42,991 nt of DNA from Candidatus Levyibacteriota bacterium (lineage in GTDB: Bacteria > Patescibacteriota > Microgenomatia > Levybacterales > UBA12049), in NCBI GenBank assembly GCA_013816255.1, contig JACDET010000007.1, forward strand, positions 1 to 42,991, written 5' to 3'. Every line of letters starts with the position of its first letter. The stretch's first letter is position 1. The notes beneath the pieces are model-generated. The model was given only the letters and a program-made list of their open reading frames with translations. It was not told where the DNA came from and did not search any database. A program made the position numbers and the translations under genes. Shown here piece after piece: positions 361-37,041 of the stretch.

Positions 361-2577
361 TTAAGCTGCTGCTCCAGCAATCTGTGATTTGTTGCCTTGC
401 ACCAAACCTGTTCCTGTTGGATCATTATCGACTGTGTCCAGATGCAAACCGTGTTGTGTTTTGTGCCAGTAGTGAGGTTTGAAAACGAACTCCCAAATCG
501 CAAGCCCTGCGGCAATACTCATTCCCAACCAATAAATAGGTGTCAAAAGAGCAAATGGTACGAGTCCCCATTGTTCACGTTTGGCTGCTCCAAGCATGTA
601 GTAATACATGTAGAGGAAGTTTCCGATGAACATTGAGAAGACAGCCATATAGAAAATCGGTGCGAGATAGAGTGATTTAATGAACTCCCCTGTCCACGGT
701 GTGAATGCAAAATATGCAATCGTCATAAGCCACATGATTGGATTGATAAGCATTGAAAGAATTTTGCCTCCGATAACGAGTTGGAAGATAAAGAAATCTT
801 GTGGTCTTTTCTGCGTAAAGAATGCTTGCGGGTTACGCATATGCACGAAATATGTTTGGATATATCCTTTGATCCATCGTGAGCGTTGCTTGACCCAATT
901 GAATGTATCTGAATTAGCTTCTTCCATTGTTGTTGAGTTAATTAAAGCAGTTCTGTATCCGATCTTTGTCAAACGCATGCCAAGATCAGCATCTTCGGTT
1001 ACATTAAACGGATCCCATTTTTGCAGTCTAATGATGTCTTTTGTACGGAAATGGTTACTCGTTCCGCCCAAAGGTATTGGCGCGTGAATTGATTGCAAAC
1101 CTGACAGGACCAAATTGAACCAGAGTGAATATTCGATTGTAAACATACGAGTCAAAAGGTTTTGATCAGGATTGTAGAAGTTCAATTTCGCTTGCAAACA
1201 AATGATGTTTTTCTTCGCTTTTTTGAAGGCTAATACAGCTTTTTTGAGTTGTAACGGGTCGGGAACATCTTCCGCGTCAAAGATCACAGTGTATTCGCCA
1301 GTTGCTTTAATCAGTCCATAGTTGCACGCCTTTGGTTTGGTTTTTGGTTTTGATTCAGGGACGATAACGACATCGAAGTAGAATGGAAGATTCATCATAG
1401 CTATCTTATCGATACTTTCAGTATCTTCACTTTCCAGAAGTAGCATAACTTGTAATTTATCTTTTGGATAATCTAATTGACTCATCGCTTTCACAAATTG
1501 TGGCAATACTTCCCATTCTTTATACAGTGGGCATAGCACTGTATAGGTAGGCCATGCTGACTCAGGAATCTTATTGATACTGCGCGCTGTGATATTTATT
1601 TCCGCTTCTTTAAAGTAACTGCGATAGATTAAAAAGAAGTTAAAGAGCAAATCAGTGAAATAAACAACTGTCAAAACAGATATGAAAACAACAAGCGTTG
1701 TGTGCCAGTTGAGAACGAGTCCTAAAATGATTGCTGTTATGAGTCCACCAAGGACCGCATATTGCAATGTTGTCATGCGGGTTAACGCACTTTCACCAAT
1801 GGTAAGATTGGTGTGGTGAATGTACTCGTTGCCGCGCATGTGAAACCCTTGCCCTTTATTATCAGTATCTTTTTGTGAGAAAGGTACAATGCCGTTATCT
1901 TTAAATTTCAACGCAACTGCACTTAATCCAATTTCCAGCGATGAGCGGACAACTGCAATTTTTGAAGTACCTGCATGACGTTTTGCGAAGTCGACATCAA
2001 CACTTGCAACTGTGTATCCAGCATGTCGTGCCTTCAGTAAGAATTCGAGATCAAAGGTCCATGATGAAGGATTGAGTTCAAAATGATTAACCAAACTTTT
2101 TCTAAAGACTTTTAATCCAGACTGGACATCTTCTGAGAATCCATGGAGCAGTTTTGAGAACATATGGTGATAAACTTTACTCATCACGCGACGAAGCATT
2201 CCCGCTTCATATTTATTTCTGTTGGCAATGACGATATCAGCGCCACCATTGATCTTTGCAATCATTTCTGGAATATACTTTGGTTGGTATTGCAGATCAG
2301 CATCAATCATGCAAAGCAGTTCATACTTGGCGTACCCAAATCCTTCAAGGAGTGAATAGGCTTTTCCTTGCTTTCCCTTTTTGGTGTGGAGTTTGATTGG
2401 GTATGTCTTTGATAATTCTTTAATAATTGCAACTGTTCTATCGGTTGACCGGTCATCGACAAAAACTATCTCATATTTTTGGACACTGCCGATGAGTGCA
2501 TAGTTAATTTGCTCGACAAGCGGTCGGATATTTTTCTCCTCATTCCAAACTGGTACAATAATAGATATATTTTTCAT
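361..2577 (-). CDS. Bifunctional GT2: N-terminal polyprenyl-phosphate sugar synthase-like module (GtrB/ArnC/DPM1 type), TM helices, and a C-terminal processive GT2 synthase module
   Basis: N-terminal motifs: IIVPVWNEEKNI, VDDRSTD, IDADLQYQP. C-terminal motifs: FDAEDVPDP, FNVTEDADLG, QRSRWIKGY (D,D,D,QxxRW). The ORF-track start at 2586 is TTG. The first ATG is 2577 (MKNISIIVPV). Confidence 0.85.
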   Translation of the reverse strand: MKNISIIVPVWNEEKNIRPLVEQINYALIGSVQKYEIVFVDDRSTDRTVAIIKELSKTYPIKLHTKKGKQGKAYSLLEGFGYAKYELLCMIDADLQYQPKYIPEMIAKINGGADIVIANRNKYEAGMLRRVMSKVYHHMFSKLLHGFSEDVQSGLKVFRKSLVNHFELNPSSWTFDLEFLLKARHAGYTVASVDVDFAKRHAGTSKIAVVRSSLEIGLSAVALKFKDNGIVPFSQKDTDNKGQGFHMRGNEYIHHTNLTIGESALTRMTTLQYAVLGGLITAIILGLVLNWHTTLVVFISVLTVVYFTDLLFNFFLIYRSYFKEAEINITARSINKIPESAWPTYTVLCPLYKEWEVLPQFVKAMSQLDYPKDKLQVMLLLESEDTESIDKIAMMNLPFYFDVVIVPESKPKTKPKACNYGLIKATGEYTVIFDAEDVPDPLQLKKAVLAFKKAKKNIICLQAKLNFYNPDQNLLTRMFTIEYSLWFNLVLSGLQSIHAPIPLGGTSNHFRTKDIIRLQKWDPFNVTEDADLGMRLTKIGYRTALINSTTMEEANSDTFNWVKQRSRWIKGYIQTYFVHMRNPQAFFTQKRPQDFFIFQLVIGGKILSMLINPIMWLMTIAYFAFTPWTGEFIKSLYLAPIFYMAVFSMFIGNFLYMYYYMLGAAKREQWGLVPFALLTPIYWLGMSIAAGLAIWEFVFKPHYWHKTQHGLHLDTVDNDPTGTGLVQGNKSQIAGAAA

Positions 2578-2584
2578 TTTTAAC

Positions 2585-2615
2585 AAAAAAGCCCAACTAC
2601 ATATAATAGTCGGGC
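2585..2615 (-). terminator. Intrinsic-terminator-like hairpin plus U-run, ending 8 nt upstream of the ATG of 361..2577
   Basis: The minus strand reads GCCCGAC-tattatatgta-GTTGGGC-tttttt-gttaaaa-ATG. The stem is 7 bp including one G.U pair. Confidence 0.5.
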
Positions 2616-2778: not shown

Positions 2779-3546
2779 GTCAGAACCAGGTTCGTACTAG
2801 CTTGAAGAACGGGGATTATACAATGAGGTGTTTGAGATTTGCTAGAGATCTTTGGTAATCGACTTGATCACGCATAAAGGATTCATATTGTTCAGGACTA
2901 GAAAAGTGACTCATAACTGATTTACAATTTATAATCTCTGTTTTCGCAAGTGGATTGAGGTACGCTCCATATGATGACCATGTATATTTCGGCAATGCAT
3001 CAATCTCCACTATATAATCAGTGACCGGATTTAAGTGAATATAGCGTGACACGTGAAGCAATTGTTCATCTGTTCCTATTCTGACAGCTTTAAACATATC
3101 TTGGAAGAGTGCCCCATGCCTACTATATTTTGTATTGAAGTATTTCGAGTAACTATGTTGAAAGTTTCTCATAAACGTCGATATCCCTTTGTCAACTTTT
3201 GACTGTAGCATAAAGTGTACATGCGTAGGCATAATGCAATAAGCGATAATTTCGACAATAGGCACTTGTTGTTTTTTAATACTTTTCATATAACTATCTT
3301 TATCCGCAAGCGCTAATCGTTTGAAATGAGAGTAACTTACTGGCATTCTTCCATATCTATAATATTGAATAAGTGCTAGTGCTCGTACATAATCATACGT
3401 AGAGGTAAAAAGAGGAATTTGTGCAACACTTCTATTAAAGACATGATACGTCTCTCCAATAGCAATAGGTATTTTACGATAAGGCATATATCTATAATAA
3501 ATAGATACATACCCGTTTGTCAAGCTAGTACGAACCTGGTTCTGAC
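2779..3546 (-). mobile_element. REPtron-like unit: RAYT gene bracketed by 35-nt inverted REP copies
   Basis: 2779..2813 is gtcagaaccaggttcgtactagcttgaagaacggg. The reverse complement of 3512..3546 is gtcagaaccaggttcgtactagcttgacaaacggg. They match at 33 of 35 positions. Confidence 0.75.
2816..3486 (-). CDS. REP-associated tyrosine transposase (RAYT; IS200-like Y1 HUH transposase, COG1943-like)
   Basis: HUH motif in IMPTHVHFML and a Tyr motif in SRYIHLNPV. The track start at 3523 is TTG and lies inside the flanking repeat. The ATG at 3486 (MPYRKIPIAIGETYHVFNR) is preferred. Confidence 0.8.
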
Positions 3547-3650: not shown

Positions 3651-6293
3651 TTATTGTTTGCTTGCTAGTTTTGGTGAGCTCCAGAGATTTGGGAGGTCGT
3701 TGTTATAGAGTGCTGTGCCGAACCAGACCCAATTCTGGGTGTAATAACTCGTCGGGTCTTCCCAATAACTCCCCTCTTTATCTTCATACAACTTATTAAG
3801 AATTTTTTCTTCATAGATCTTTTTGGCATTTGTCTTATCAGTTACGACAAAGTTACCGAGGTTCGATGCGTATGCACCTGCTGCTTCATATTCTTCCCAC
3901 GGTTTTCCATCATGTGTATATGCGACGTCGATCTTTCCTTTTTCTTTCCATTCTTTGCGTATAAAATCACTCTTGGTTAAATACGCTTTTGCTCTTGGTT
4001 CTTTGAACCATTGATAGTCAAGAGCAATTCTCCACGGTGTGCGAAAAGCGTCATATGAATATTCAGTCGAGTTCAAACCTTCATCAGGTGATTTGATAAT
4101 TTTACCAGCACTATTGACTGCGCACCAGTTTGGAGCAAGTCCAACGGACGATTCTTTATCTAAATTGCTTTCACTACATGCATTGAGAACCTCATACGAT
4201 GAATTCACAACACTCAACCAATTATGTTCTGTATCGATTTCTGCAAAGATTCGGTAACTGGCCGGCATCAAATATGAAGGGTTTACGATTGCTGAGCTCT
4301 TGGCTTTTGCCCAATCTCCGGCAACCAGATAGGGTTTGCCGCGTACTACTTTTATCTCTTGATCCCAAATACCATTGATTACAGACCTTGCTTCGGCAAT
4401 ATATTGCGGGTTATTCCAGCGTTTACCAGCAAAAGCCAACGCTAGTGCGATATCCTGATCGCCATCCGTTGCTGAACTCTTATCCAGAACTCCTGGTGTG
4501 CCGCCAGCCGTCTTTCCCCATTTCCAAGAGAAAACATTACTTTCTTTTTGCATATTTCGTTTGGTGAATCCCCAAGCTCTATCAAATGTTTCTTTGTCGT
4601 TCATCCATACAGCCCGAAGCATTGCATAGGACTGTCCTTCTGACGTGGTTTGGTTACTTGCCGGATCAACGGTGTTTCCATCCTCCTCAATAAACGTCTG
4701 CTTGTATGTTTCCCATGTTGATACAAGAATTCTTCGAGAATTTTTTACTGCCCAGATTTGCACATACCATCCGTCTCCTGTGAAACTTGTAATTGGATTT
4801 GATTGTGCCAAAGCATTTCCTGTCATTGGTAACTCCCCTGTTCCCAAATCTCCTCCAATAAGTGGTGTGAAGAGAATGTAGTCGATATTGTTGTAGTCAT
4901 TATTGAGCACTTTTTCTTTGATATCACGGTCTCCATCAACTTTCCAATAATACTCTGCGTTTTTAAAATTCCCATCATTTCTAAAGTTTAGATCTAAGTA
5001 CGCATAGTTATCTATCGCAATAAATTCTGTAGGCATTTTGCGTGACAGTATCCACTCTACTGCTTCGATTTGCGCGTCAGTTACATTTGATCGATATATA
5101 TCAAACCTATCAGAACGTATCGATGATGAGAAGTCAGTAAGCGTAATTCCCATGTATCCGAGGAAGGCAAGAACTGGGAAAATAGCGTACAATTTCAACG
5201 GTACAAATTTCATCTTCCAGAAAAAGTTCGTCGCAACATAGACAACGTATGCAGTTGTCAGTGATATGAGGGGTATCAGCGGGACGATGTAGAATTCAAG
5301 AACCAAACCTCCTCTGAGTAAAAATGCCCAATAAGAAAGAGCGAAGCCACCAATGATTCTTGCCGCAACGCTTTTGATTGCGAGAAGTAATGTAATCACA
5401 GTCGAAGCAGCACCAACAAGTAAAATTGCGGGATCATCATTTTTCCAGTTGTTGGTCATTTCCCAAAAACTCGATTTGGGATTCCAAATGTCGACATTAC
5501 CTCGACTTGCTTGAAAATCTAACGTCCCCAAAAGACTGACGTGCTCATTGGTTCCACCAAGTGGCGTTCCTGCTGGAAAGAATTCACCTTTGAACATACT
5601 GAATACGAAATAGAGTGAGATGAAGCATCCCGCAATAGCAATCCATTTAATTGTTCCAAAAAGTCTATTAACTTTATGGAGTTGGCTGTACACAAGTACA
5701 GCGAGAAACGGCAAGAAAAAGATAGCAGATTCTTTACTCAATACTGCGATACCAAAACTCAATGCACTGGCAATAATCCAGCGAAGTTTTTGCTTACTGT
5801 AGAGAATAAATGCAAGCGAAATGAGTAGCCAGAAAACCATGATATTATCAAGAAGCACACGTCTTTGAAAGTAAATTGCCAGAGGAGACAGTGAGAACAT
5901 CAGAACAGAGAACGCTCCAACCATCTTTGAGCCAGTAATTTTTTTGCCCACAAAATACAAAAGGAGTGCTGAAGCAATATGCAAAATAAGCATAAGCACA
6001 CGACCCGAATTAATTGAGAATCCGAACGTAAAAAGACCTCCGGTTAACTTAAGCCAAGCCGCAATAAGAAACCAACCAATAGGTGCATGATCGTACCAAT
6101 AGGTATATGGAGCTAATTTACCTTCACTAATAATTGACCACGCTTGCGACATGTAGGTACCTTCATCAGATTCATAATATGGGTAGCCAAACATGTTATA
6201 GCCGTGCGAAACCCCAGCAACAACTAAGACTGCGATAATGATAATCCATTCAAAGGTTTTACTTTTGAAAAATTGTTTTAGTTTATGTAACAT
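3651..6293 (-). CDS. Fusion protein: N-terminal GT39/PMT-like polytopic glycosyltransferase (GT-C) plus C-terminal GH8 endoglucanase-like domain
   Basis: N-terminal YYESDEGTYMSQAW..YDHAPIGW (DE-motif loop of PMT/ArnT-like enzymes) with about 12 TM segments. C-terminal TSEGQSYAMLRAVW and SATDGDQDIALALAFAGKRW are BcsZ/GH8-type blocks. Confidence 0.8.
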   Translation of the reverse strand: MLHKLKQFFKSKTFEWIIIIAVLVVAGVSHGYNMFGYPYYESDEGTYMSQAWSIISEGKLAPYTYWYDHAPIGWFLIAAWLKLTGGLFTFGFSINSGRVLMLILHIASALLLYFVGKKITGSKMVGAFSVLMFSLSPLAIYFQRRVLLDNIMVFWLLISLAFILYSKQKLRWIIASALSFGIAVLSKESAIFFLPFLAVLVYSQLHKVNRLFGTIKWIAIAGCFISLYFVFSMFKGEFFPAGTPLGGTNEHVSLLGTLDFQASRGNVDIWNPKSSFWEMTNNWKNDDPAILLVGAASTVITLLLAIKSVAARIIGGFALSYWAFLLRGGLVLEFYIVPLIPLISLTTAYVVYVATNFFWKMKFVPLKLYAIFPVLAFLGYMGITLTDFSSSIRSDRFDIYRSNVTDAQIEAVEWILSRKMPTEFIAIDNYAYLDLNFRNDGNFKNAEYYWKVDGDRDIKEKVLNNDYNNIDYILFTPLIGGDLGTGELPMTGNALAQSNPITSFTGDGWYVQIWAVKNSRRILVSTWETYKQTFIEEDGNTVDPASNQTTSEGQSYAMLRAVWMNDKETFDRAWGFTKRNMQKESNVFSWKWGKTAGGTPGVLDKSSATDGDQDIALALAFAGKRWNNPQYIAEARSVINGIWDQEIKVVRGKPYLVAGDWAKAKSSAIVNPSYLMPASYRIFAEIDTEHNWLSVVNSSYEVLNACSESNLDKESSVGLAPNWCAVNSAGKIIKSPDEGLNSTEYSYDAFRTPWRIALDYQWFKEPRAKAYLTKSDFIRKEWKEKGKIDVAYTHDGKPWEEYEAAGAYASNLGNFVVTDKTNAKKIYEEKILNKLYEDKEGSYWEDPTSYYTQNWVWFGTALYNNDLPNLWSSPKLASKQ

Positions 6294-6356
6294 ATTATTA
6301 TTGTTCGAGCGAAGTTGAAAACCGTTTCTCGATTCACTTTGTTCACTCGAAAAGTA

Positions 6357-8570
6357 TTAATTCCCTATCTTTATATAATTTGTATTTATTGGTAAAAAAG
6401 CTTTTTCAGGTCTATGTGCATTCAGATGTAATGTTTTTTCCCAACTGCCGTTGCCTGTAATAAGTCTGAGAATTGCCCGCATCGCGCTTAATCCGAGAAT
6501 AATTTGAAATGGATAGAATGAATATAATATTTTAAATGGTAACCAGAAAGGGAAACGCATCCCATATCCTTTGGTAAATTCATACATCCCGATAGTAAAT
6601 GCAACAAGTTGTAGGAGAAGCAGCAGTAACGGAATAAATGTAATCATCGCGAAAATCACTGGTAAGTTGAGAACAAAAGCCAGAAAGATTGAGATAGGAA
6701 GCATCAGGAAAAAGAATGCTTGTAATTGTGGAACAAGTAAAATGTATCCGGCGAGAAAACGTTGTTGGAATTTTGGCAATTTTAACCACTCGCCTTTCCA
6801 AAGGATTTGTATAAAACCTTGATTCCACCTTGTGCGTTGTTTGATAAAGCTATCGAGATTATGTGGCGTTTCTTCTTGTGTTGTGTGCTTTTCATCATAG
6901 ACGACACCAATGCTTGCACCTCTTGCACTCAGTCGTATACCAATTTCTGCATCCTCTGTCAGACATGCTTCATCCCATCCACCAACTTGCCCCAACATTT
7001 TTCGTTTGAAGAAGACTGTATTTCCTCCGAGCGGGATGATGCCTTGTTTGGCAAAGTAATGCAGTGCTGATTTGAACCAGAAGAAATATTCAAGAACATT
7101 GAGCGTTGAGAACCAATTAGATTTGAAGTTCATGAGTTGCACGCCAGACTGCAAAACATCAAGATTTTTGGTAGTCATTTGCGTGTTGGCAATGTTATAG
7201 ATACTCCGGCTTGGTTGATCTTCAGCGTCAAATACCACGATGACATCTTTTGTGGCGTGCATCAGCCCAATGTTCAAACTATGTGGCTTGTTTATTGGCA
7301 TATCATTAAAGATGACCAATCGGACATTAGGTTTGTTCAGCTCTGTAATTGTTTGTTGTGCACGGGCAATTGTCCCATTATCATCTGATCGGACAATAAC
7401 CAGTGTTTCTTTCAGTCCCTCAGGATAATCAATCCCAGCAATCGCGCGAATCGTATCCCCGATGACATGTTCTTCATGTCTCACAGGCAGAAGTGCGGTA
7501 AAAGAAAATTTGGGTTTTTCATATATTTGCGGTACTTTATCTTTTTCTATTCGTTCTACGTCTTCCCAACCATACAGCATGAGAAAAATACTGAAGACAC
7601 TTTGCCAAATCATGAGAACTGAAATGGTAACTAATACCAGTATAATGAGTGTCTGATTACTTATAAATCCAGCCGTCTGGAGGTTGTACATGGCTAACGC
7701 AGCGATATTTCCGAGAGAAAATGCGGTAATTGCGACGATTGCTGCAAGAAGGGCAACTCCTCCATGCACAAGATATGGCATGCGGATTGTAAATGAATGG
7801 AAAATAAATTCTATGATATCGCGCTTACTGAGCTTGGAATTCCCGTGAATTCGATCGGTAAATTGAATTGGAATCTCTTTAATAATAGCGTTGTTCTGAA
7901 TAGCTTTATGCAGAAGATCAATTTGAAAAGCATAGCCTTTAGCTTTGAGTTTGTTAAGATGTATCCTTTTCAGAAGCGATGTTCTGATCGCGCGGAAACC
8001 ACTGGTACAGTCCTTTACGCGGCCAAGACCTGCTATATGGCGTGCAAATATATTTCCCCATTGGCTGTTAAGCTTACGGATGCGTGGCCATTTCGCGGGA
8101 ATTGATCCCCCGTCAATGTATCGTGAGCCAATCACAAAATCATTGCCTTTTTGTATTTCGTAGACAAAAAACGAGATCATTGATGGATCGTGAGAAAAAT
8201 CAGCATCCATTTCAAAGACAATATCCGCACCCATTTGCCGCATAGCATATTTGAACCCACGGATATACGCATTGCCAAGTCCAGCCTTACGACCTTTGAG
8301 TAAATGGACGTTTTTGTATTTCTTGACATATGTCTGTACAATCTGGGCTGTCCCATCAGGTGAGAAATCATCAACGACCAAAATTGATAGAATTGCGTTT
8401 TTGAGATAAATAGATTGTGTTTGGATAGCTTCGATTATTTTGCCTATATTCTCACTTTCATTATATGTAGGCACAACAATAACGACATGATCCTTCAGGA
8501 CTCCTGCCTTTGATACATTTTGCAAGCGCAGTTGATACAACTGCTTATTTTTATTTCGTAAACGGTTCAT
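6357..8570 (-). CDS. Bifunctional GT2: N-terminal DPM1/Ppm1-like polyprenyl-phosphate mannose/glucose synthase module, TM helices, and a C-terminal processive GT2 module (divergent paralog)
   Basis: N-terminal motifs: VVPTYNESENI, VVDDFSPDGT, EMDADFSHDP. C-terminal motifs: FDAEDQP, LTEDAEIG, QRTRWNQGF. ATG start at 8570. Confidence 0.85.
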   Translation of the reverse strand: MNRLRNKNKQLYQLRLQNVSKAGVLKDHVVIVVPTYNESENIGKIIEAIQTQSIYLKNAILSILVVDDFSPDGTAQIVQTYVKKYKNVHLLKGRKAGLGNAYIRGFKYAMRQMGADIVFEMDADFSHDPSMISFFVYEIQKGNDFVIGSRYIDGGSIPAKWPRIRKLNSQWGNIFARHIAGLGRVKDCTSGFRAIRTSLLKRIHLNKLKAKGYAFQIDLLHKAIQNNAIIKEIPIQFTDRIHGNSKLSKRDIIEFIFHSFTIRMPYLVHGGVALLAAIVAITAFSLGNIAALAMYNLQTAGFISNQTLIILVLVTISVLMIWQSVFSIFLMLYGWEDVERIEKDKVPQIYEKPKFSFTALLPVRHEEHVIGDTIRAIAGIDYPEGLKETLVIVRSDDNGTIARAQQTITELNKPNVRLVIFNDMPINKPHSLNIGLMHATKDVIVVFDAEDQPSRSIYNIANTQMTTKNLDVLQSGVQLMNFKSNWFSTLNVLEYFFWFKSALHYFAKQGIIPLGGNTVFFKRKMLGQVGGWDEACLTEDAEIGIRLSARGASIGVVYDEKHTTQEETPHNLDSFIKQRTRWNQGFIQILWKGEWLKLPKFQQRFLAGYILLVPQLQAFFFLMLPISIFLAFVLNLPVIFAMITFIPLLLLLLQLVAFTIGMYEFTKGYGMRFPFWLPFKILYSFYPFQIILGLSAMRAILRLITGNGSWEKTLHLNAHRPEKAFLPINTNYIKIGN

Positions 8571-8745
8571 TTTGTGCTTGAAAGAATGTAGATTTAATGG
8601 GGCAATATAAATCTATGAGCTCTAAAATATAGTACTAACGCATTTGAATACTATAAGCCAGCAAGTCGTGAGTATAGTATAGAGAGAAAGATATGTCAAG
8701 TTCTATACATATTTATAGCCCATCCATAAACATATCTCTTTAAGA

Positions 8746-8775: not shown

Positions 8776-8943
8776 TAAAGTCTGCCTCAGTATCCGGTTT
8801 TTGTAAAGAACTGGAAAGATAAATTGCCTCTTTACTATAAGACTTTTTTATGGTACACTGCACCATATAGGATATCTTTGCTATGGGATTCATTCCATAG
8901 CACATATAAGAATCTTGTAACCATAAAACAGTATAAAATACAT

Positions 8944-11900
8944 ATGAACCTAAATATTATAAGTCGTTATTTTAAGAAAACACGTACCCGTGCTCAACGC
9001 AAGAAGAAAATGTATGAACAGATAGCACCTGTTGCAGGGTCAATGCGGGGTGCAGGAGTCCATTTCAAAAACAAAAAGTATATTACTCATACCACACTCC
9101 CCGTCTCACTTTCTGCCATACAGACATTCTCACTTTCCCAAAAGATCTTTTTTATCGCGACACCAATTCTTCTTATCGCGGCTCTTATTCTGTTCCCTTT
9201 GCCAGCAGCGCAAATGATTGTTGCTGTACTCAGTATTCTTTACCTCATTGACGCAATCTTTAATATATTTGTCGTCACAAAGAGTCTGAGTCGTGAGAAT
9301 GAAATAAATGTTACCGATGAAGAATTAAGTACGATAAATGAAAACAATTTACCAACGTATACAATATTATGTCCTTTATACAAAGAAGTGCATGTCGTCC
9401 CACAGTTTCTTGAAGGTATAGCTGCAATCGACTGGCCAAAAGATAAACTTGATGTGATGTTTCTTCTTGAAGAAGATGATGCAGAAACCATCGAAGCCTT
9501 TGGCGAAATGACGCTTCCTTTTTATGCACGAACAGTTGTCGTCCCTGATTCCCAACCAAAGACCAAACCAAAAGCGTGTAATTACGGACTATCGTATGCA
9601 ACGGGTGAATACCTCGTAATCTTTGATGCAGAAGACGTCCCGGATCCTCTGCAACTCAAAAAGGCATATCTCGGATTTAAAAAAGCTCCAGCAAATGTAA
9701 CATGTTTGCAGGCAAAACTCAGTTACTACAATGCGCGTCAAAATCTGTTGACCAGATTCTTTACAGCTGAATATGCATTGTGGTTTGATGTGACATTGCC
9801 AGGGCTGCAATCACTCAATTCAGCGCTTCCATTGGGTGGTACAAGTAATCACTTCCTCACTGAGAATTTGCGCCAACTGCAAGGTTGGGATCCATTTAAT
9901 GTGACTGAAGATGCTGACTTGGGTGTGCGCCTATTCCAAAAAGGTTACCGTACAGCGATCATCAATTCAACAACCTATGAAGAAGCAACAAGTGTCAACA
10001 AAAATTGGTTGCGCCAACGTTCACGATGGATCAAGGGATATATGCAAACGTATTTAGTGCACATGCGCAATATCCGTGACTTTATCCGTGAGAAAGGTTT
10101 ATGGCATAACTTCATCTTTCAATTAACCGTTGGAGGAAAAATCTTGTTCGTTCTCTTAAATCCGTTCATGTGGATTATCACATTCTTGTATTTCGCGGCT
10201 AATCCTCTCGTGGGTCCGGTCATGGAAGCTATCTATATAGCACCGATTTCCTACATCGCTGTGACCTCATGGATCTTTGGTAACTTCCTCTTCATGTACT
10301 GCTACATGATCGCTGTCGCCAAAAGAAAACAATGGGATATCACAAAATATATATTACTTATACCATTATATTGGTTCATGATGAGTACGGCTGCGATGAT
10401 CGCGCTTTATCAGTTGATTCTTAAACCCCACTATTGGGAAAAAACACTACACGGATTTCATCTCGGACGCAAAGAAGATGCAAAAGCCGCACCAGGTGTT
10501 ACGGTCAAGCCAGTTATTGCACCTGCATATGCTAGGTCTGCAGTCACGATGAAACTAGATAAAAAAACGCACAAATTCACAATGCCTAATCGTAAAAAGA
10601 CATTGTACGCTCTATTAAACGTCTTACCATTCATAGCAATTTTAAATATCGATTTAGTCGTTGCACGCTATTATCTTCCTATACAGGAAGCACAAACATA
10701 CTTACTTGTCTCACTTCTTGGAAAAACACTCTTTCTTGTCAGTCAAATCGGATCAAAAATACTTGCAACGTACGTAGCACGCGGAGAATCTGAACGCAAT
10801 GTCTTTTACAAAACCGTTCTTTTCACCTTCTTATTTCACTGGATGGGATACATTCTTTTGGGTCTTGAAGGAGCGTTCTTTATCCCGGCAGTATTGGGCT
10901 CAACATTTAATGCAGCGATAATTTACATGCCTTTTTATATGTTTGCTCTTCTGTGCTTTGGACTGGCTATGCGCTTTAACGCATATAACTTACAGCGCAA
11001 TAATCCTGTTTACGCCGTAGTATCACTCACGACAATATTTGCTTTCATCCCGCTTATTATGATGAATAACGATTCAGTAGCAGGCTTTGTCAGAACATTT
11101 GCCTATGTCGGTTCAATTAATCTCTTCGCGGTTGTCACGATATATATGAGCAAACCTTACATGCGCATTATGCAAAACAATGTAGGAAGCTTGCTTGCAA
11201 TCTTTGATAAGGTGCGTACGCGCAAAGTCTGGAAAGACAATCAAATGAAAATTTTGATTTTCAACTGGCGCGATACCAAACACGTTTACGCTGGAGGGGC
11301 TGAAGTCTATGTCGACGAATTATCAAAACGATGGGTAAAAAATGGTAACAAAGTAACCCTTTTCTGTGGGAACGATAATCGAAATCCTATTTATGAACAA
11401 ATACAGGGTGTTGAAATCTACCGCCGTGGTGGAACCTATACTGTATACCTGTTCGCGATTATTTACTACATGTTCAAGTTCCGTGGTAAATATGACGTTA
11501 TTATCGATTGTGAAAATGGAATTCCATTCTTTATGCCACTTTTCGCGCGTGAGCAGGTAATTCTTCTGATCCACCATGTACACCAAGATATCTTTAGAAA
11601 ATTCTTGAAATTTCCTATCAGTTTCATCGCTGAAATGCTTGAAGGAAAGCTCATGCCATTTATATATCAAAATAAAAATGTTGTGACTGTTTCAGCCTCT
11701 TCACAAAGTGATATATTTAATCTTGGATTTACGAATGCAGGCAATATAGCAATCATTCCAAATGGTGTTGATAGTGCACTATTTGTAGATTACCCAAAAA
11801 CAGAGTATCCTTCATATATCTATTTAGGGAGACTTAAAGAATACAAAAATGTTGATGTCGCAATTACAGCATTTTCTAAAGTATTGAAAATACATAAAAA

Positions 11901-12414
11901 TGCTGTATTCTCGATTGTCGGAACTGGTGAATGTTATCCAGTATTGCAGCAATTAGTCATTGATCTGGGTATTCAGGATTCTGTTATTTTCCATGGCCGA
12001 GTTTCAGAAGAAGAAAAAGCACGATTGCTCGCACAAAGTTGGGTAGCGATTCAACCGTCACAAATGGAAGGTTGGGGTATTACCGTTATTGAAGCAAATG
12101 CCGCTGGAACACCTGTTATCGCCTCCCGTGTGAATGGTTTGCAAGATTCTGTTTTGGATCAGCAGACTGGCATTCTTGTTGAGGTCGGCGATGTGGCAGG
12201 ATTTGCTATTGCAATGCGCAAGATAGTTGATGACGATCTTTTCAGAATAAATCTCGCGCATGGAGCGAAGCAATGGGCTGGTAATTTCAATTGGAACAAA
12301 AGTGCTGACGATTTTTATAAACTAATCGGAAGTAATTATGGACAACGTACAGCCAAAACAAAGTATTCAAACGTTGAGTTCTCGACACAAAAAAAGGGAG
12401 TTAAAAATCTATGA
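8944..12414 (+). CDS. Three-module fusion: processive GT2 synthase, Wzx/MOP-flippase-like C-terminal TM block, and GT4 (GT-B) glycosyltransferase
   Basis: GT2 motifs: FDAEDVPDP, FNVTEDADLG, QRSRWIKGY. The middle block has DLVVARYYLPIQEAQTYLLVSLLGK plus multiple TM segments. C-terminal KILIFNWRD..GGAEVY and EGWGITVIEANAAGTPVIAS (E-x7-E). The track start at 8824 is TTG. The ATG at 8944 (MNLNIISRYF) is preferred. Confidence 0.8.
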   Translation: MNLNIISRYFKKTRTRAQRKKKMYEQIAPVAGSMRGAGVHFKNKKYITHTTLPVSLSAIQTFSLSQKIFFIATPILLIAALILFPLPAAQMIVAVLSILYLIDAIFNIFVVTKSLSRENEINVTDEELSTINENNLPTYTILCPLYKEVHVVPQFLEGIAAIDWPKDKLDVMFLLEEDDAETIEAFGEMTLPFYARTVVVPDSQPKTKPKACNYGLSYATGEYLVIFDAEDVPDPLQLKKAYLGFKKAPANVTCLQAKLSYYNARQNLLTRFFTAEYALWFDVTLPGLQSLNSALPLGGTSNHFLTENLRQLQGWDPFNVTEDADLGVRLFQKGYRTAIINSTTYEEATSVNKNWLRQRSRWIKGYMQTYLVHMRNIRDFIREKGLWHNFIFQLTVGGKILFVLLNPFMWIITFLYFAANPLVGPVMEAIYIAPISYIAVTSWIFGNFLFMYCYMIAVAKRKQWDITKYILLIPLYWFMMSTAAMIALYQLILKPHYWEKTLHGFHLGRKEDAKAAPGVTVKPVIAPAYARSAVTMKLDKKTHKFTMPNRKKTLYALLNVLPFIAILNIDLVVARYYLPIQEAQTYLLVSLLGKTLFLVSQIGSKILATYVARGESERNVFYKTVLFTFLFHWMGYILLGLEGAFFIPAVLGSTFNAAIIYMPFYMFALLCFGLAMRFNAYNLQRNNPVYAVVSLTTIFAFIPLIMMNNDSVAGFVRTFAYVGSINLFAVVTIYMSKPYMRIMQNNVGSLLAIFDKVRTRKVWKDNQMKILIFNWRDTKHVYAGGAEVYVDELSKRWVKNGNKVTLFCGNDNRNPIYEQIQGVEIYRRGGTYTVYLFAIIYYMFKFRGKYDVIIDCENGIPFFMPLFAREQVILLIHHVHQDIFRKFLKFPISFIAEMLEGKLMPFIYQNKNVVTVSASSQSDIFNLGFTNAGNIAIIPNGVDSALFVDYPKTEYPSYIYLGRLKEYKNVDVAITAFSKVLKIHKNAVFSIVGTGECYPVLQQLVIDLGIQDSVIFHGRVSEEEKARLLAQSWVAIQPSQMEGWGITVIEANAAGTPVIASRVNGLQDSVLDQQTGILVEVGDVAGFAIAMRKIVDDDLFRINLAHGAKQWAGNFNWNKSADDFYKLIGSNYGQRTAKTKYSNVEFSTQKKGVKNL

Positions 12415-13298
12415 AAGCACAAGTGAATGTATCTATAGGAATCCCTGCATATAATGAAGGGAAAAATATTCAGCAACTCCTTATGTCGCTTCTTGCGCAA
12501 AAAGAAGATTCGATTAAGATTAAGGAAATTATCCTGCTATCTGATGGCAGTAATGACGATACGGGACAAAAAGTGAAAGCTATCAAAGACCGGAGAATTA
12601 TTTTTAAAGATGACCATAAACGTCTTGGAAAATCTGCTCGCTTGGATCAAATATTTAGATCATTTACAGGCGATGTACTCATTCTTATGGATGCTGATAT
12701 CGTCATAACTGATGCCCAATTGCTTGAAAAAACTATACTTGCCGCAAATCTTTCTCGATCAGGCATAGTGGGCATTAACGCTCTTCCACTTACTGCTGAA
12801 ACATTCTTCGAGCAAGTTATCGAAACTGGTGTGCGTATCATGAAAGATATTGCAAAAGGATGGAATAATGGAAATAATTATTTATCATTTAAAGGTTGCT
12901 TTCTGGCTCTCGATGGAAAGCTCGCAAAGGCGATTCATATACCAGCAAGTGTTGTAAATAATGATTCATATCTTTACTTTGCTGGAGTGGAGAAAAAATA
13001 TGTACCCAAATATTTATCAGATATAAGCGTTTATTACCGTTCTCCAATGAATCTTGCTGATCACATCAAACAGTCATCACGGCATCAAAACTCGCGTAAA
13101 GAACTTGAGAAATTTTTTACATTAGATTGGGACTACGAATATACAATGCCTGTTGCATTAGTAATACTGAGTATCCTAAAATCTATACTCACCCGTCCAA
13201 TATATTTCGTAGCCTATCTTGCCGTGACACTCATTGCCAAAGTCAAACGGCAAACAAATATCAAAAGCACATGGAGTGTGGCTAAGTCGACGAAGTAA
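12411..13298 (+). CDS. Non-processive GT2 family glycosyltransferase
   Basis: SIGIPAYNEGKNI, LSDGSNDDT and MDADIV motifs. ATGA overlap with the upstream stop. AAGGGAG RBS about 10 nt upstream. Confidence 0.75.
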   Translation: MKAQVNVSIGIPAYNEGKNIQQLLMSLLAQKEDSIKIKEIILLSDGSNDDTGQKVKAIKDRRIIFKDDHKRLGKSARLDQIFRSFTGDVLILMDADIVITDAQLLEKTILAANLSRSGIVGINALPLTAETFFEQVIETGVRIMKDIAKGWNNGNNYLSFKGCFLALDGKLAKAIHIPASVVNNDSYLYFAGVEKKYVPKYLSDISVYYRSPMNLADHIKQSSRHQNSRKELEKFFTLDWDYEYTMPVALVILSILKSILTRPIYFVAYLAVTLIAKVKRQTNIKSTWSVAKSTK

Positions 13299-13300
13299 TG

Positions 13301-13335
13301 TTAGTACTTAGTAGTTAGTCTTTAGTTCTTAGAAT
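13301..13335 (+). repeat. Five tandem TTAGnnn heptads directly after the stop codon
   Basis: ttagtac ttagtag ttagtct ttagttc ttagaat. Two inverted TTAG units follow at 13352..13366 (catactaagcactaa). Confidence 0.7.
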
Positions 13336-13375
13336 CAATATTTTAAACAAGCATACTAAGCACTAAATTAATATA

Positions 13376-14464
13376 ATGATTGATAAATACCAAAAACTTT
13401 CTGTCTTCCATTTCTCGTCTGAGATTAAAAAACGTCATGGTAAAAAGCATTTAAAGTGCATAATCTTTGGCAATTTCGGTGCAATGAATTTGGGAGATGA
13501 AGCAATACTTGCTGGACAAATACAGGAACTGCATAAAATCCCCAATCTGACCATTACAGTCGTCGGACGGTATCCTAAAGAAGTGCAAAGAATACATAAA
13601 GTAACAGCTTTGTCTCTTTATTCTCTCTATAAAGTTCGGAGAGAAGTCAAAAAATCGGATTTCGTTATTGTCGGCGGAGGCGGAATCATTAACAAAGTTG
13701 AACGAAGCCTGATAGGATTTTTCTATCAAATCTACATGCTCGGTGTCTTCTTTTTATTGCCAAGAATGTACAAAAAGAAAATCTATGTCCTTGGTATCGG
13801 TATATATAGCAATGCAAACAGAATCATAGTCAACATGGTTTTACCCTTTTTACGTGCAGCAACACTTTTGACGGTCAGGGATTTTCACTCACAAACCTTT
13901 CTTAAAAAGAAAAATGTGCACGCAGCTTTGTATCAAGATAATAGTTTTCTTATGGATTTGGCGACAAAACAGGATATTCTGAAGGATGCATATTTCCAGA
14001 AGCATTACCGCCCTGAGAGAATGAATATCGGCATATCTCTCGTTAAACCTGATGCAAAAAAAGATGAAAAACGCTTGAGCAAAGAAATCCTCAGCTTTAT
14101 CGGAGAGTATTATCAAAAGGCTGATTTCTGGTTTTACGCAACTGATTACAATCCTGAATACTTTAATGATGCCAAAGTTGGAAAACAACTTTATGATGAA
14201 TTAAAGAAGCAGTATACGAGTGAAATCGTCTTTCATCTCGTCCCGATGACACTTTCTCCGCAACGTTACTTCGCATCATTCAAGCTCATGCAGTTCGTTA
14301 TCGCGATGCGCTTTCATGCGGCCGTCTTTGCGTATAGAAACGACGTCCCTTTTGCTGGTATTTCTTACGACAAGAAATGCACAAGTTTTATTGAATCCGT
14401 GGGAAAAACCGCATTACAGCTCAAAACCCTCACCTGGGAGCAAATTAATAAAAACGTCTTATAG
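13376..14464 (+). CDS. Polysaccharide pyruvyl transferase family protein (CsaB/WcaK-like)
   Basis: IIFGNFGAMNLGDEAIL near the N-terminus and AMRFHAAVFA near the C-terminus. The size of about 360 aa is typical. Confidence 0.7.
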   Translation: MIDKYQKLSVFHFSSEIKKRHGKKHLKCIIFGNFGAMNLGDEAILAGQIQELHKIPNLTITVVGRYPKEVQRIHKVTALSLYSLYKVRREVKKSDFVIVGGGGIINKVERSLIGFFYQIYMLGVFFLLPRMYKKKIYVLGIGIYSNANRIIVNMVLPFLRAATLLTVRDFHSQTFLKKKNVHAALYQDNSFLMDLATKQDILKDAYFQKHYRPERMNIGISLVKPDAKKDEKRLSKEILSFIGEYYQKADFWFYATDYNPEYFNDAKVGKQLYDELKKQYTSEIVFHLVPMTLSPQRYFASFKLMQFVIAMRFHAAVFAYRNDVPFAGISYDKKCTSFIESVGKTALQLKTLTWEQINKNVL

Positions 14465-14511
14465 TTTGACATCCATCCCTTTATGTGATACAATTCTGCC
14501 AACCTATAACT

Positions 14512-37014: not shown

Positions 37015-37041
37015 CAGCAGCAAATACAAACGTATCGACGG

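What the first reader, a model, noticed from the sequence alone, without database searches (positions are those of the whole stretch)
3651..6293. GT39/PMT-like membrane glycosyltransferase fused to a GH8 endoglucanase domain
The first ~520 aa form a PMT/ArnT-type GT-C domain (YYESDEGTY loop, about 12 TM segments). The last ~350 aa carry the GH8 catalytic blocks TSEGQSYAML and SATDGDQDIALALAFAGKRW, which resemble BcsZ.

One polypeptide would therefore combine a lipid-linked-sugar transferase with a beta-glucan hydrolase on the extracytoplasmic face. This implies coupled trimming and decoration, or transglycosylation, of a nascent glycan. The protein lies directly downstream of a synthase fusion, separated by 63 nt.
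Basis: partly seen in the sequence, partly recalled or inferred. Interest (0 to 1): 0.62.

Follow-up and report, generated by a model that had tools for sequence, protein, structure and literature searches.

The report
Membrane sugar-transferase fused to glucanase
This gene encodes one protein that joins a membrane-embedded, lipid-sugar-using glycosyltransferase to an outward-facing GH8 glycan-cutting enzyme. It always sits just after a cellulose-synthase-like gene, which points to an undescribed way of making, decorating and trimming a surface polysaccharide in uncultured and some cultured bacteria.

Summary
ORF 3651..6293 (-) encodes an 880-aa protein with three parts:
- an 11-helix GT-C membrane glycosyltransferase (aa 1-388);
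- its α/β outer domain (aa 389-518);
- a complete GH8 (α/α)6 domain (aa 519-880) that keeps the CelA/BcsZ catalytic Glu552, Asp612 and Asp748.

Predicted topology is N-in/C-out, so the GH8 domain lies outside the cell.

The gene lies 63 nt downstream of a fusion of a DPMS-like polyprenyl-phosphate-sugar synthase to a BcsA-like processive synthase.

The fusion is a conserved family, with hundreds of members in Patescibacteria, Chloroflexota, Dormibacterota and Actinomycetota. In 68 of 79 loci the same synthase lies directly upstream.

The five functions (lipid-sugar synthase, GtrA flippase, synthase, GT-C, GH8) are fused or split in different combinations. In cultured Microbacteriaceae all five are separate neighbouring genes.

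Best reading: this is the extracytoplasmic partner of a synthase-dependent β-glycan pathway. The GT-C domain adds sugars from a lipid-linked donor and the GH8 domain trims the chain.

The protein is not a GT39/PMT member (no MIR domain) and not a BcsZ equivalog. The polymer is unknown. No publication on this architecture was found. I rate it a new variant of known kinds and of moderate to high interest.

The parts
3651..6293 (-). Whole gene: 880-aa GT-C + α/β domain + GH8 fusion protein (P0001)
   Evidence: ORF list and translation. Pfam domains. AlphaFold2 model with pLDDT 90.8 and pTM 0.83.
5130..6293 (-). GT-C membrane domain, aa 1-388, 11 TM helices, N-terminus cytoplasmic
   Evidence: Helices in the models. 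Positive-inside count across 44 homologues: 14.7 K/R in 52 cytoplasmic-loop residues against 9.8 in 137 outer-loop residues. In the Foldseek search of the aa 1-519 model, all top 47 hits are GT-C enzymes.
6162..6167 (-). Asp43-Glu44 in the first outer loop, the presumed catalytic or metal-binding acidic pair of the GT-C domain
   Evidence: Invariant in 44/44 and 63/63 sequences across four phyla. Codons checked.
4740..5129 (-). α/β extracytoplasmic domain of the GT-C enzyme, aa 389-518
   Evidence: Secondary structure in the models. Present in stand-alone GT-C relatives that lack GH8.
3654..4739 (-). GH8 (α/α)6 domain, aa 519-880
   Evidence: Pfam PF01270, E 4e-48. PDB sequence match to CelA 1cem, E 1e-30. 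Foldseek matches to BcsZ 3qxq/9b87 and 4q2b with TM 0.82-0.85.
4638..4640 (-). Glu552, the predicted GH8 proton donor
   Evidence: Aligns with CelA Glu95. The E95Q mutant entry 1kwf shows Q at this column. Codon checked.
4458..4466 (-). Asp610-Gly-Asp612 of the GH8 signature block (positions the sugar at subsite -1)
   Evidence: Aligns with 'TDAD' of CelA. D612 is invariant in 44/44.
4050..4052 (-). Asp748, the predicted GH8 general base (GH8a position)
   Evidence: YSYDAFR aligns with YKYDATR of CelA (Asp278). The role of this position is described in PMC5407803. In the family it is D in 23/44 and N in 20/44.
6294..6356 (-). 63-nt intergenic spacer with no terminator-like hairpin
6357..8570 (-). 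Upstream partner gene (P0002, 737 aa): polyprenyl-phosphate-sugar synthase-like GT2 fused through 2 TM helices to a processive GT2 synthase
   Evidence: Pfam and NCBIfam. In the PDB search, aa 29-262 match P. furiosus DPMS 5mlz (E 1e-31) and aa 320-659 match BcsA (E 1e-8). Motifs DAED448, TED538 and QRTRW578 are present.
8671..8699 (-). Promoter-like site (11 of 12 consensus positions) upstream of the two-gene unit
   Evidence: This is a consensus match only.

Best explanation
The protein is the extracytoplasmic, bifunctional partner of the synthase encoded just upstream. Together the two polypeptides would form a compact synthase-dependent polysaccharide machine.

**Proposed steps**
1. *Donor synthesis (inferred).* The N-terminal DPMS-like GT2 domain of the upstream protein loads a sugar onto polyprenyl phosphate in the cytoplasm.
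2. *Flipping (inferred).* The lipid-sugar is flipped outward by a GtrA-type protein. This is fused or adjacent in many relatives. In this genome the only one found is on another contig.
3. *Polymerisation (inferred).* The C-terminal BcsA-like GT2 domain polymerises and translocates a β-linked glycan.
4. *Decoration (inferred).* The 11-TM GT-C domain has its invariant Asp43-Glu44, Asp68-His69, Arg144-Arg145, Asp149 and Lys187-Glu188 on the outer face. It takes the sugar from the lipid carrier and adds it to the emerging chain as a side branch.
5. *Trimming.* The GH8 domain is tethered directly above the membrane. It binds the same chain and cleaves it, playing a BcsZ-like role in release, length control or quality control.

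**Shown:** the architecture, the intact catalytic residues, the predicted outward topology, and the conserved synteny and domain fusions.

**Inferred:** the donor sugar, the acceptor, the polymer (a β-1,4-glucan or a GlcNAc/GlcN-containing β-glycan) and the order of events.
For: **Domains and residues**
- Domain matches.
- GH8 Glu552, Asp612 and Asp748 align with the CelA catalytic residues.
- The fold is BcsZ-like.
- The GT-C fold is confirmed, and its acidic and basic residues are invariant in 63 sequences from four phyla.

**Topology**
- The N-in/C-out, 11-TM topology comes from two high-confidence models.
- A family-wide positive-inside bias agrees with it.

**Synteny**
- A P0002-like synthase lies directly upstream in 68 of 79 loci. 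Gaps are mostly -4 to +5 nt.

**Variable fusions of the same five functions**
- GT2N+synthase (this window, L001, L003, L005 and others).
- GtrA+synthase (L037).
- GT2N+GtrA+synthase (L050).
- Synthase+GT-C+GH8 in one 1331-aa protein, P0198.
- All separate in Frigoribacterium: synthase, GtrA, GT-C, GH8 and GT2N are neighbouring genes.

**Other support**
- The orthologous GT-C is fused to a GH3 domain instead of GH8 in L051, L063 and L065.
- A distant GT-C is fused to GH5 after another synthase in the same window.
- The upstream N-domain matches DPMS (E 1e-31) and the C-domain matches BcsA.
- Glycan hydrolases are a regular part of synthase-dependent systems (review PMC8892547).
- The three-component GT-A/GtrA/GT-C glycosylation scheme is established (summarised in PMC13390465).
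Against: - Nothing here has been tested biochemically or genetically.
- No GtrA gene lies in this window. 32 of 68 loci show no lipid-sugar synthase within 6 kb, so the donor supply is not always local.
- No synthase-dependent polymer is known to be branched by a GT-C enzyme, so the acceptor is a guess.
- The GH8 catalytic residues are not universally kept. The base Asp748 is Asn in about a fifth to a half of relatives, depending on the set, and Glu552 is replaced in about 10 of 51. Hydrolysis therefore cannot be the indispensable function of the domain across the family.
- The cues to the polymer conflict. GH8 best matches cellulases. The synthase scores best against PgaC/IcaA in NCBIfam. The GH3 domains fused to orthologues look like NagZ.
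Confidence: 0.55

Rival explanations
1. Lipid-primed or en-bloc transfer model. The polyprenyl-phosphate-sugar made by the upstream N-domain would prime or carry the growing chain. The GT-C domain would act like an oligosaccharyltransferase or ligase and move a lipid-linked glycan onto a wall, protein or glycan acceptor. The GH8 domain would cleave the chain from its primer or act as a transglycosylase.
For: - The best fold matches of the GT-C part are oligosaccharyltransferases that transfer en bloc (AglB, STT3).
- The lipid-sugar synthase and the polymer synthase are physically fused.
- Half of close relatives carry Asn at the GH8 general-base position. From my own knowledge, this kind of change favours synthesis over hydrolysis in engineered GH8 enzymes. 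The PDB holds Rex D263 mutants.
- From my own knowledge, lipid-linked intermediates with an endoglucanase acting as a transferase were proposed for Agrobacterium cellulose (Matthysse et al. 1995).
Against: - BcsA-type synthases are known to elongate without a lipid primer (my own knowledge).
- The upstream N-domain is of the DPMS/GtrB/ArnC type, which makes monosaccharide donors.
- GtrA-type flippases, which co-occur with the module, handle monosaccharide-phosphate lipids (PMC13390465).
- The window's own GH8 domain keeps the Asp base.
Confidence: 0.1
2. The GT-C domain glycosylates a protein or lipid, in the manner of PMT or ArnT, rather than the polymer. The GH8 domain and the synthase would then be functionally separate neighbours.
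For: - Pfam assigns the domain to the PMT/PMT_2 families.
- Actinobacterial clusters include a sortase and a DUF4397 protein between the GT-C and GH8 genes. These could be a surface-protein substrate.
Against: - The covalent fusion to a glycan-binding GH8 domain is conserved.
- Orthologues are fused to GH3.
- The tight, often overlapping junction with the synthase gene in 68 of 79 loci is hard to explain if the glycan is not the substrate.
- There is no MIR domain.
- The sortase and DUF4397 genes are confined to a few actinobacterial loci.
Confidence: 0.1
3. In the family as a whole, the GH8 domain is mainly a non-hydrolytic glycan-binding module that presents the acceptor chain to the GT-C active site. 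This would resemble the carbohydrate-binding C-terminal domains of Emb and AftD arabinosyltransferases. Hydrolysis would be secondary or lost.
For: - Glu552 is replaced by R, S, Q, A, K or L in about 10 of 51 GH8 domains, and Asp748 is replaced in about 19.
- A related GH8 domain serves as the outer domain of a Ser/Thr kinase (P0248), a typical sensor position.
Against: - This window's protein, and 30 of 51 relatives, keep the complete catalytic set.
- Stand-alone GH8 genes accompany the split clusters.
Confidence: 0.15
4. The protein is a membrane-anchored cellulase or chitosanase for feeding on environmental polysaccharide, and the GT-C part serves only as an anchor.
For: - The source is a soil metagenome.
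- GH8 genes in such genomes are routinely counted as degradative capacity in metagenome surveys (papers listed).
Against: - A mere anchor would not keep about 17 invariant charged and aromatic residues on its outer face across four phyla.
- The synteny with the synthase and with lipid-sugar and flippase genes would be unexplained.
- Catalytic residues are lost in many members.
Confidence: 0.05

Closest known systems
Bacterial cellulose synthase core BcsA with the GH8 endoglucanase BcsZ (and the membrane-tethered GH5 CcsZ of clostridia)
   Same: - A processive GT2 synthase with D, DxD, TED and QxxRW motifs is encoded next to a GH8 (α/α)6 endoglucanase-type enzyme that acts outside the cytoplasm.
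- The GH8 fold matches BcsZ at TM 0.82-0.85.
- Hydrolases tethered to the membrane beside the synthase are known from CcsZ (PMC8892547).
   Different: - No BcsB, BcsC or PilZ domain was detected by Pfam in the two proteins.
- The BcsZ equivalog score is 135 bits against a cut-off of 299.
- The synthase is only remotely BcsA-like (E 1e-8) and is fused to a lipid-sugar synthase.
- The hydrolase is fused to a complete GT-C glycosyltransferase, which no Bcs system has.
Three-component transmembrane glycosylation systems (GtrB/GtrA/GtrC; CsbB/GtcA/YfhO; GacI/GacL; ArnC/ArnT)
   Same: - A GT2 polyprenyl-phosphate-sugar synthase, a GtrA-type flippase and a polytopic GT-C transferase with an outward-facing active site are encoded together in relatives.
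- The scheme is described in PMC13390465.
   Different: - The known systems decorate O-antigen, teichoic acids, rhamnopolysaccharide or lipid A, which are made by other routes.
- Here the set is welded to a synthase-dependent polymerase and a glycoside hydrolase.
- The GT-C is not YfhO or GtrC. It is only 11-15% identical to any solved GT-C.
Protein O-mannosyltransferases (GT39) paired with dolichol/polyprenol-phosphate-mannose synthase
   Same: - The protein matches Pfam PMT/PMT_2 and has a Asp-Glu pair in loop 1.
- The upstream N-domain's best solved relative is a DPMS.
   Different: - There is no MIR domain and no PMT_4TMC domain.
- Yeast Pmt1/2/4 align over only about 270 columns.
- The C-terminal domain is a GH8.
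- The genomic partner is a polysaccharide synthase.
Mycobacterial Emb/AftD arabinosyltransferases (GT-C enzymes with C-terminal carbohydrate-binding domains)
   Same: - A GT-C membrane enzyme uses a polyprenyl-phosphate monosaccharide donor and carries an extracytoplasmic glycan-binding domain that holds the polysaccharide acceptor.
- These enzymes appear among the fold matches.
   Different: - Their outer domains are non-catalytic CBM-like modules.
- Here the appended module is a glycoside hydrolase with intact catalytic residues.

Membership tests
Glycoside hydrolase family 8 (GH8) | Match to the family profile above the curated threshold | tested here: met
   PF01270 scores 164.6 bits against a cut-off of 24, covering aa 520-834.
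Glycoside hydrolase family 8 (GH8) | (α/α)6 barrel fold | tested here: met
   AlphaFold2 model with pLDDT above 90 over the domain. Foldseek TM (target-normalised) is 0.78-0.85 to BcsZ, CMCax, CelA and 4q2b.
Glycoside hydrolase family 8 (GH8) | Catalytic proton-donor Glu, the conserved Asp of the signature block, and the general-base Asp at the CelA Asp278 position (GH8a) | tested here: met
   Glu552, Asp610/612 and Asp748 align with the CelA residues. Roles are as described in PMC5407803. Not all family members keep them.
BcsZ (cellulose synthase complex endoglucanase, NCBIfam NF008305 equivalog) | Score at or above the curated equivalog cut-off | tested here: not met
   135.3 bits against a cut-off of 299.
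BcsZ (cellulose synthase complex endoglucanase) | Encoded with BcsA and BcsB(/BcsC) of a bcs operon | tested here: not met
   The upstream gene is only remotely BcsA-like. No Pfam family for BcsB, BcsC or PilZ was reported for the tested ORFs of the window.
GT-C fold glycosyltransferases | Polytopic membrane fold of the GT-C type with an extracytoplasmic soluble domain | tested here: met
   Model of aa 1-519 with pLDDT 93.5 and pTM 0.94. The top 47 Foldseek hits are all GT-C enzymes: AglB, STT3, ArnT, Pmt4, ALG9/12, PglB, AftB and Emb.
GT-C fold glycosyltransferases | Conserved acidic residue(s) in the first extracytoplasmic loop | tested here: met
   Asp43-Glu44 are invariant in 63/63 sequences. 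They lie in the loop after TM1 on the predicted outer side.
GT-C fold glycosyltransferases | Transfer from a polyprenyl-phosphate-linked donor | not testable with these tools
   There is only contextual support: DPMS-like and GtrA-type genes or domains are fused or adjacent in relatives.
GT39 protein O-mannosyltransferases (PMT) | Luminal MIR domain between TM7 and TM8, and the C-terminal PMT_4TMC module | tested here: not met
   Pfam reports only PMT_2 and the N-terminal part of PMT (profile positions 80-225 of 245), with no MIR and no PMT_4TMC. The loop between TM7 and TM8 is 53 aa.
GT39 protein O-mannosyltransferases (PMT) | Closest structural relatives are PMTs | tested here: inconclusive
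   C. thermophilum Pmt4 ranks 10th (TMq 0.51). Yeast Pmt1/2/4 align over about 270 columns only. AglB, STT3 and ArnT rank higher. All are at 11-15% identity.
Three-component (GtrB/GtrA/GT-C) glycosylation systems | A GT2 polyprenyl-phosphate-sugar synthase encoded with the GT-C | tested here: met
   The upstream protein's aa 29-262 match DPMS 5mlz (E 1e-31) and ArnC. This domain is fused or adjacent in 36 of 68 loci.
Three-component (GtrB/GtrA/GT-C) glycosylation systems | A GtrA-type flippase encoded with them | tested here: inconclusive
   None is present in the ORFs tested in this window. One GtrA domain exists elsewhere in the roughly 80%-complete genome (contig 6). GtrA is present in about 25 of 80 related loci, sometimes fused to the synthase.

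The most novel reading that the evidence does not exclude
The two-gene unit may be a self-contained machine of a kind not yet described. In this reading a BcsA-like synthase works with lipid-linked sugar chemistry. The GT-C domain acts as a ligase or primer-handling transferase, and the GH8 domain acts as a primer-cleaving or transglycosylating enzyme. That would revive, for these bacteria, the old idea of lipid-linked intermediates in β-glucan synthesis. A less radical version is that this is the first synthase-dependent polysaccharide whose side branches are added outside the cell by a GT-C enzyme.
Probability: 0.12. Interest if true: 0.85.

Novelty: new variant of a known kind. Interest (0 to 1): 0.62.

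Why it matters
**Two paradigms joined.** The module would link two textbook routes that are normally separate. One is synthase-dependent secretion of a homopolymer. The other is extracytoplasmic glycosylation from lipid-linked monosaccharides. This gives a simple two-protein route to a branched or trimmed surface glycan in bacteria with very small genomes.

**Caution for metagenome surveys.** GH8, GH5 and GH3 genes of Patescibacteria are often counted as 'cellulose degradation potential'. Here they are tied to biosynthesis.

**Experimentally approachable.** The same module occurs, split into separate genes, in cultured Microbacteriaceae and Arthrobacter. It occurs fused in Marisediminicola senii. 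The hypothesis can therefore be tested by ordinary genetics and carbohydrate analysis.

Tried and rejected
- **PDB sequence searches for the GT-C part.** Searches with the single sequence and with the 44-sequence profile found no GT-C entry, only GH8 entries. The fold had to be classified by structure prediction.
- **Full-length Foldseek.** This search was dominated by GH8 hits, so I predicted and searched a second model of aa 1-519.
- **Comparison with the GH5 fusion.** The GT-C of this protein and that of the GH5 fusion in the same window show only a marginal relationship (BLASTP E 0.034; hhalign probability 16%). They are not recent duplicates.
- **RNA and tRNA scans.** No tRNA and no Rfam family was found in the window.
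- **Literature.** Searches for the GT-C+GH8 combination, for GH8 in Patescibacteria, and for cellulose synthase in Microgenomates or CPR found no description of this architecture. DUF4397 has no informative literature.
- **Sequencing runs.** Only the source soil metagenome holds the stretch. No RNA run was found, so I could not check transcription.
- **Interdomain geometry.** I therefore could not measure where the GH8 cleft lies relative to the GT-C active site.
- **Feeding-enzyme reading.** Rejected as unlikely (see rival explanations).
Full report
**1. The observation**

The window has one ORF with no internal stop at 3651..6293 on the minus strand, encoding 880 aa. Pfam finds two kinds of domain:
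- PMT_2 at aa 68-225 (E 6e-12) and PMT at aa 92-226 (E 3e-9);
- Glyco_hydro_8 at aa 520-834 (E 4e-48, 164.6 bits against a cut-off of 24).

The next gene upstream (6357..8570, minus strand) ends 63 nt before the start codon. The spacer has no terminator-like hairpin. An 11-of-12 promoter-like site lies upstream of the first gene, so a two-gene transcription unit is plausible. I could not check this, because no RNA data exist for this soil-metagenome organism.

**2. Anatomy of the protein**

An AlphaFold2 model built on 44 homologues is confident (pLDDT 90.8, pTM 0.83). A second model of aa 1-519, built on 63 sequences from fetched loci, is better still (pLDDT 93.5, pTM 0.94).

Both models show 11 long membrane helices:
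- TM1 at aa 13-31;
- TM2 to TM7 between aa 93 and 234;
- TM8 to TM11 between aa 288 and 388.

There are also two large loops, at aa 32-92 and 235-287. After the membrane part comes an α/β domain (aa 389-518) and then an (α/α)6 barrel (aa 519-865).

Across the 44 homologues, the loops assigned to the cytoplasm hold 14.7 Lys/Arg in 52 residues and almost no acidic residues. The loops assigned to the outside hold 9.8 Lys/Arg in 137 residues and are net negative. This supports an N-in/C-out topology, which places both the α/β domain and the GH8 domain outside the cell.

**3. The GH8 domain**

- The best solved sequence relative is C. thermocellum CelA (E 1e-30), followed by BcsZ-type enzymes.
- By fold, the closest are P. 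putida 4q2b and E. coli BcsZ, with target-normalised TM of 0.82-0.85.
- Glu552 sits in the column where the CelA E95Q mutant entry carries Gln.
- Asp610 and Asp612 align with the signature 'TDAD'.
- Asp748 (YSYDAFR) aligns with CelA Asp278 (YKYDATR).
- These are the proton donor, the subsite -1 Asp and the GH8a-type general base, as described in PMC5407803.

The second refutation test, missing catalytic residues, is thus also not met for this protein.

In the wider family the picture is looser. The base position is Asp in 23 and Asn in 20 of 44 close relatives. Among 51 GH8 domains from species-level representative genomes, 30 keep the full set, 9 have only the Asp-to-Asn change, and about 10 have lost the Glu.

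The NCBIfam BcsZ equivalog model scores 135 bits against a cut-off of 299. The domain is therefore GH8, and BcsZ-like in fold, but not a BcsZ orthologue.

**4. The GT-C domain**

No solved GT-C is detectable by sequence, even with a profile. By fold, the top 47 matches of the aa 1-519 model are all GT-C enzymes: AglB, STT3, ArnT, C. thermophilum Pmt4, ALG12/9/3, PglB, DPY19, AftB/A/D and EmbA-C. TM scores are 0.5-0.6 and identities 11-15%.

Yeast Pmt1/2/4 align over only about 270 columns. The protein has no MIR domain and no PMT_4TMC module. It is therefore a distant ArnT/PMT/OST-like GT-C, not a GT39 member.

In 63 sequences from four phyla the invariant residues are Asp43, Glu44, Tyr47, Tyr63, Tyr67, Asp68, His69, Arg98, Arg144, Lys187, Glu237, Arg264, Trp283, Tyr335 and Asp455. 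By the predicted topology nearly all of them lie on the outer face. This is what an active lipid-donor transferase should show, and it argues against a mere membrane anchor.

**5. The upstream partner**

The upstream protein (737 aa) has three parts:
- an N-terminal GT2 domain, whose best solved relative is the dolichol-phosphate-mannose synthase of P. furiosus (E 1e-31), followed by ArnC;
- two TM helices;
- a processive GT2 domain, whose best solved relative is BcsA (E 1e-8), with DAED, TED and QRTRW motifs.

Its best NCBIfam family is PgaC/IcaA, far below that model's cut-off.

**6. Relatives and context**

The word-indexed search returned more than 600 hits. The best 120 are nearly all full-length proteins of 820-890 aa carrying both domain types, and the named ones come from Patescibacteria lineages. 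The exhaustive search of cluster representatives gave 834 hits below 1e-30. These include more than 100 full-length fusions down to 31% identity, stand-alone GT-C proteins that match aa 10-516, and GH8 domains with other N-termini.

A scan of one genome per species gave 598 confirmed loci; the best 80 were fetched. The full fusion occurs in:
- many Patescibacteria lineages;
- Chloroflexota (L030, L032, L037, L062);
- a Dormibacterota MAG (L029);
- the cultured actinobacterium Marisediminicola senii (L067).

Within Patescibacteria the fusion is sporadic. Only 5 of 300 evenly drawn genomes carry it.

Mapping the five domain types on all loci with phmmer gave these results:
- A homologue of the upstream synthase domain lies directly before the GT-C gene in 68 of 79 cases with enough flank. 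Gaps are mostly -4 to +5 nt.
- Most exceptions are second tandem copies of the fusion gene.
- The lipid-sugar synthase domain is fused to the synthase in 18 loci, a separate neighbour in 18, and not seen within 6 kb in 32.
- GtrA-type flippase domains occur in about 25 loci. They are fused to the synthase in L037 and sit between the two GT2 domains in L050, both confirmed by Pfam.

In Frigoribacterium the gene order is: synthase-like, GtrA, synthase, GT-C, DUF4397, GH8, sortase, GT2N. Plantibacter, Curtobacterium and Arthrobacter ruber have similar arrangements.

One database protein of 1331 aa joins the synthase, GT-C and GH8 domains in a single chain (P0198). This is a single gene prediction that I could not verify.

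Orthologous GT-C domains carry a GH3 domain instead of GH8 in L051, L063 and L065. That GH3 domain is nearer to NagZ than to BglX.

This variable pattern of fusion and fission of the same five functions is the main argument that they act in one pathway.

**7. The same theme elsewhere in this genome**

The window holds further synthase-then-hydrolase pairs:
- a GT2 synthase followed by a distant GT-C fused to GH5;
- a GT2 synthase, a HlyD-like protein and a GH81 enzyme;
- a GT2 synthase followed by GH26;
- a second DPMS-like/synthase fusion at 361..2586.

Two stand-alone GH8 genes on other contigs each sit next to a cellulose-synthase-like GT2. The only GtrA domain found in this roughly 80%-complete genome is fused to a GT2 next to another PMT_2 protein on contig 6.

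Earlier notes of this scan describe some of these neighbours. I used them only as pointers and re-derived the domain content myself.

**8. Mechanism**

The most economical reading combines two established schemes.
- Synthase-dependent systems regularly include a hydrolase that acts on the nascent chain. Its proposed roles are release, length control and relief of abortive secretion (PMC8892547).
- Three-component systems use a GT2 lipid-sugar synthase, a GtrA flippase and a GT-C transferase to add single sugars to glycopolymers outside the membrane (PMC13390465).

Here both sets are welded together. I therefore propose that the GT-C domain branches the chain that emerges from the BcsA-like domain, using the lipid-sugar made by the DPMS-like domain. 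The tethered GH8 domain would bind and cut the same chain.

Everything beyond architecture, residues, predicted topology and synteny is inference. My confidence is about 0.55.

The polymer is unresolved. The GH8 and BcsA affinities point to a β-1,4-glucan. The PgaC-like score of the synthase and the NagZ-like GH3 domains in orthologues point to a HexNAc-containing β-glycan. GH8 also includes chitosanases (1v5c and 7cju among the hits).

**9. Rivals**

- A lipid-primed or en-bloc-transfer mechanism, with GH8 as primer-cleaving enzyme or transglycosylase (0.10).
- A protein or lipid acceptor for the GT-C domain (0.10).
- A mainly non-catalytic, acceptor-presenting role for the GH8 domain (0.15 for the family, less for this protein).
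- A degradative enzyme on a membrane anchor (0.05).

The evidence for and against each rival is given in the Rival explanations section.

**10. Novelty**

I found no paper that describes a GT-C/GH8 fusion or a synthase coupled to a GT-C enzyme. Database names for family members are only 'glycosyl hydrolase family 8' or 'glycosyltransferase family 39 protein'. The parts belong to known families and the logic combines known schemes, so I rate this a new variant of a known kind, with interest 0.62.

The module is widespread and conserved, and it occurs in cultured Actinomycetota. It is therefore directly testable.

Noticed in passing
window 32918-35503 (-) with 35506-37029 (-): A second GT-C/hydrolase fusion: an 861-aa protein with a weak PMT_2 match and a GH5 (Cellulase) domain, 2 nt downstream of a 507-aa GT2 synthase. 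Its GT-C part is only marginally related to the one studied here (BLASTP E 0.034; hhalign probability 16%).
   Followed up: partly
window 26528-32766 (-): A run of four genes: a 663-aa polytopic protein with no Pfam match, a 505-aa GT2 synthase, a 277-aa HlyD-like protein, and a 677-aa protein with a GH81 C-terminal domain. This may be a β-1,3-glucan-type module.
   Followed up: no
window 23259-25900 (-): A 534-aa GT2 synthase (weak Cellulose_synt match) overlaps by 4 nt with a 346-aa GH26 protein. This is another synthase-hydrolase pair.
   Followed up: no
window 361-2586 (-): A second fusion of a DPMS-like GT2 to a processive GT2 synthase (741 aa). It is 25% identical to the one upstream of the finding and is followed by a gene cut off at the window edge (1-273).
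   Followed up: partly
window 2816-3523 (-): A REP-associated tyrosine transposase (RAYT)-like ORF (Y1_Tnp E 7e-12; NCBIfam REP_Tyr_transpos 52.6 bits, below the cut-off of 80). It sits between the GT-C/GH8 gene and the second synthase fusion.
   Followed up: no
window 8824-15348 (+): A divergent cluster: a 1196-aa protein with GT2-synthase-like and GT4 domains, a GT2, a polysaccharide pyruvyl transferase and a CE4 polysaccharide deacetylase. The close relative L003 has the same divergent arrangement.
   Followed up: no
own genome, contigs C51 (L085) and C19 (L086): Two stand-alone GH8 genes (419 and 390 aa), each 46% identical to the fused GH8 domain. Each lies immediately before a cellulose-synthase-like GT2 gene.
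   Followed up: partly
own genome, contig C6 (L084): A classical pair: a GT2+GtrA_DPMS_TM fusion (400 aa) followed by a PMT_2 GT-C protein, next to a GDP-mannose 4,6-dehydratase fragment. This is the only GtrA domain found in the genome.
   Followed up: partly
P0248 (816 aa): A Ser/Thr protein kinase domain fused to a GH8 domain closely related to the one studied here (47% identity). This suggests GH8 can serve as an extracellular glycan-sensing module.
   Followed up: no
P0233, P0252 and L046:4304-6586: Orthologous GT-C proteins without GH8 carry an N-terminal DUF4388 (PatA-like receiver-type) domain, mostly in Chloroflexota-type loci.
   Followed up: no
L019, L025, L042 (and L023): Tandem duplicates of the whole GT-C/GH8 fusion gene lie behind a single synthase gene. 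In L025 one of the two copies has lost the catalytic Glu. In L023 the fusion has lost the Glu and is followed by a second GH8 protein that keeps it.
   Followed up: partly
L076, L078, L079, L080, L083: In Microbacteriaceae and Arthrobacter, a DUF4397 protein and a sortase are conserved between the GT-C, GH8 and GT2N genes. This hints at a wall-anchored protein component.
   Followed up: partly
L006, L007, L010, L014, L016, L018, L020, L022 and others: Many 'TPA_asm' MAG records that carry typical Patescibacteria-like fusion genes are titled 'uncultured Gammaproteobacteria', 'Pseudomonadales' or 'Bdellovibrionales'. These labels look unreliable.
   Followed up: no
window 40789-42036 (-): A 415-aa protein with a strong Ice_binding-like domain match (E 2e-56).
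   Followed up: no
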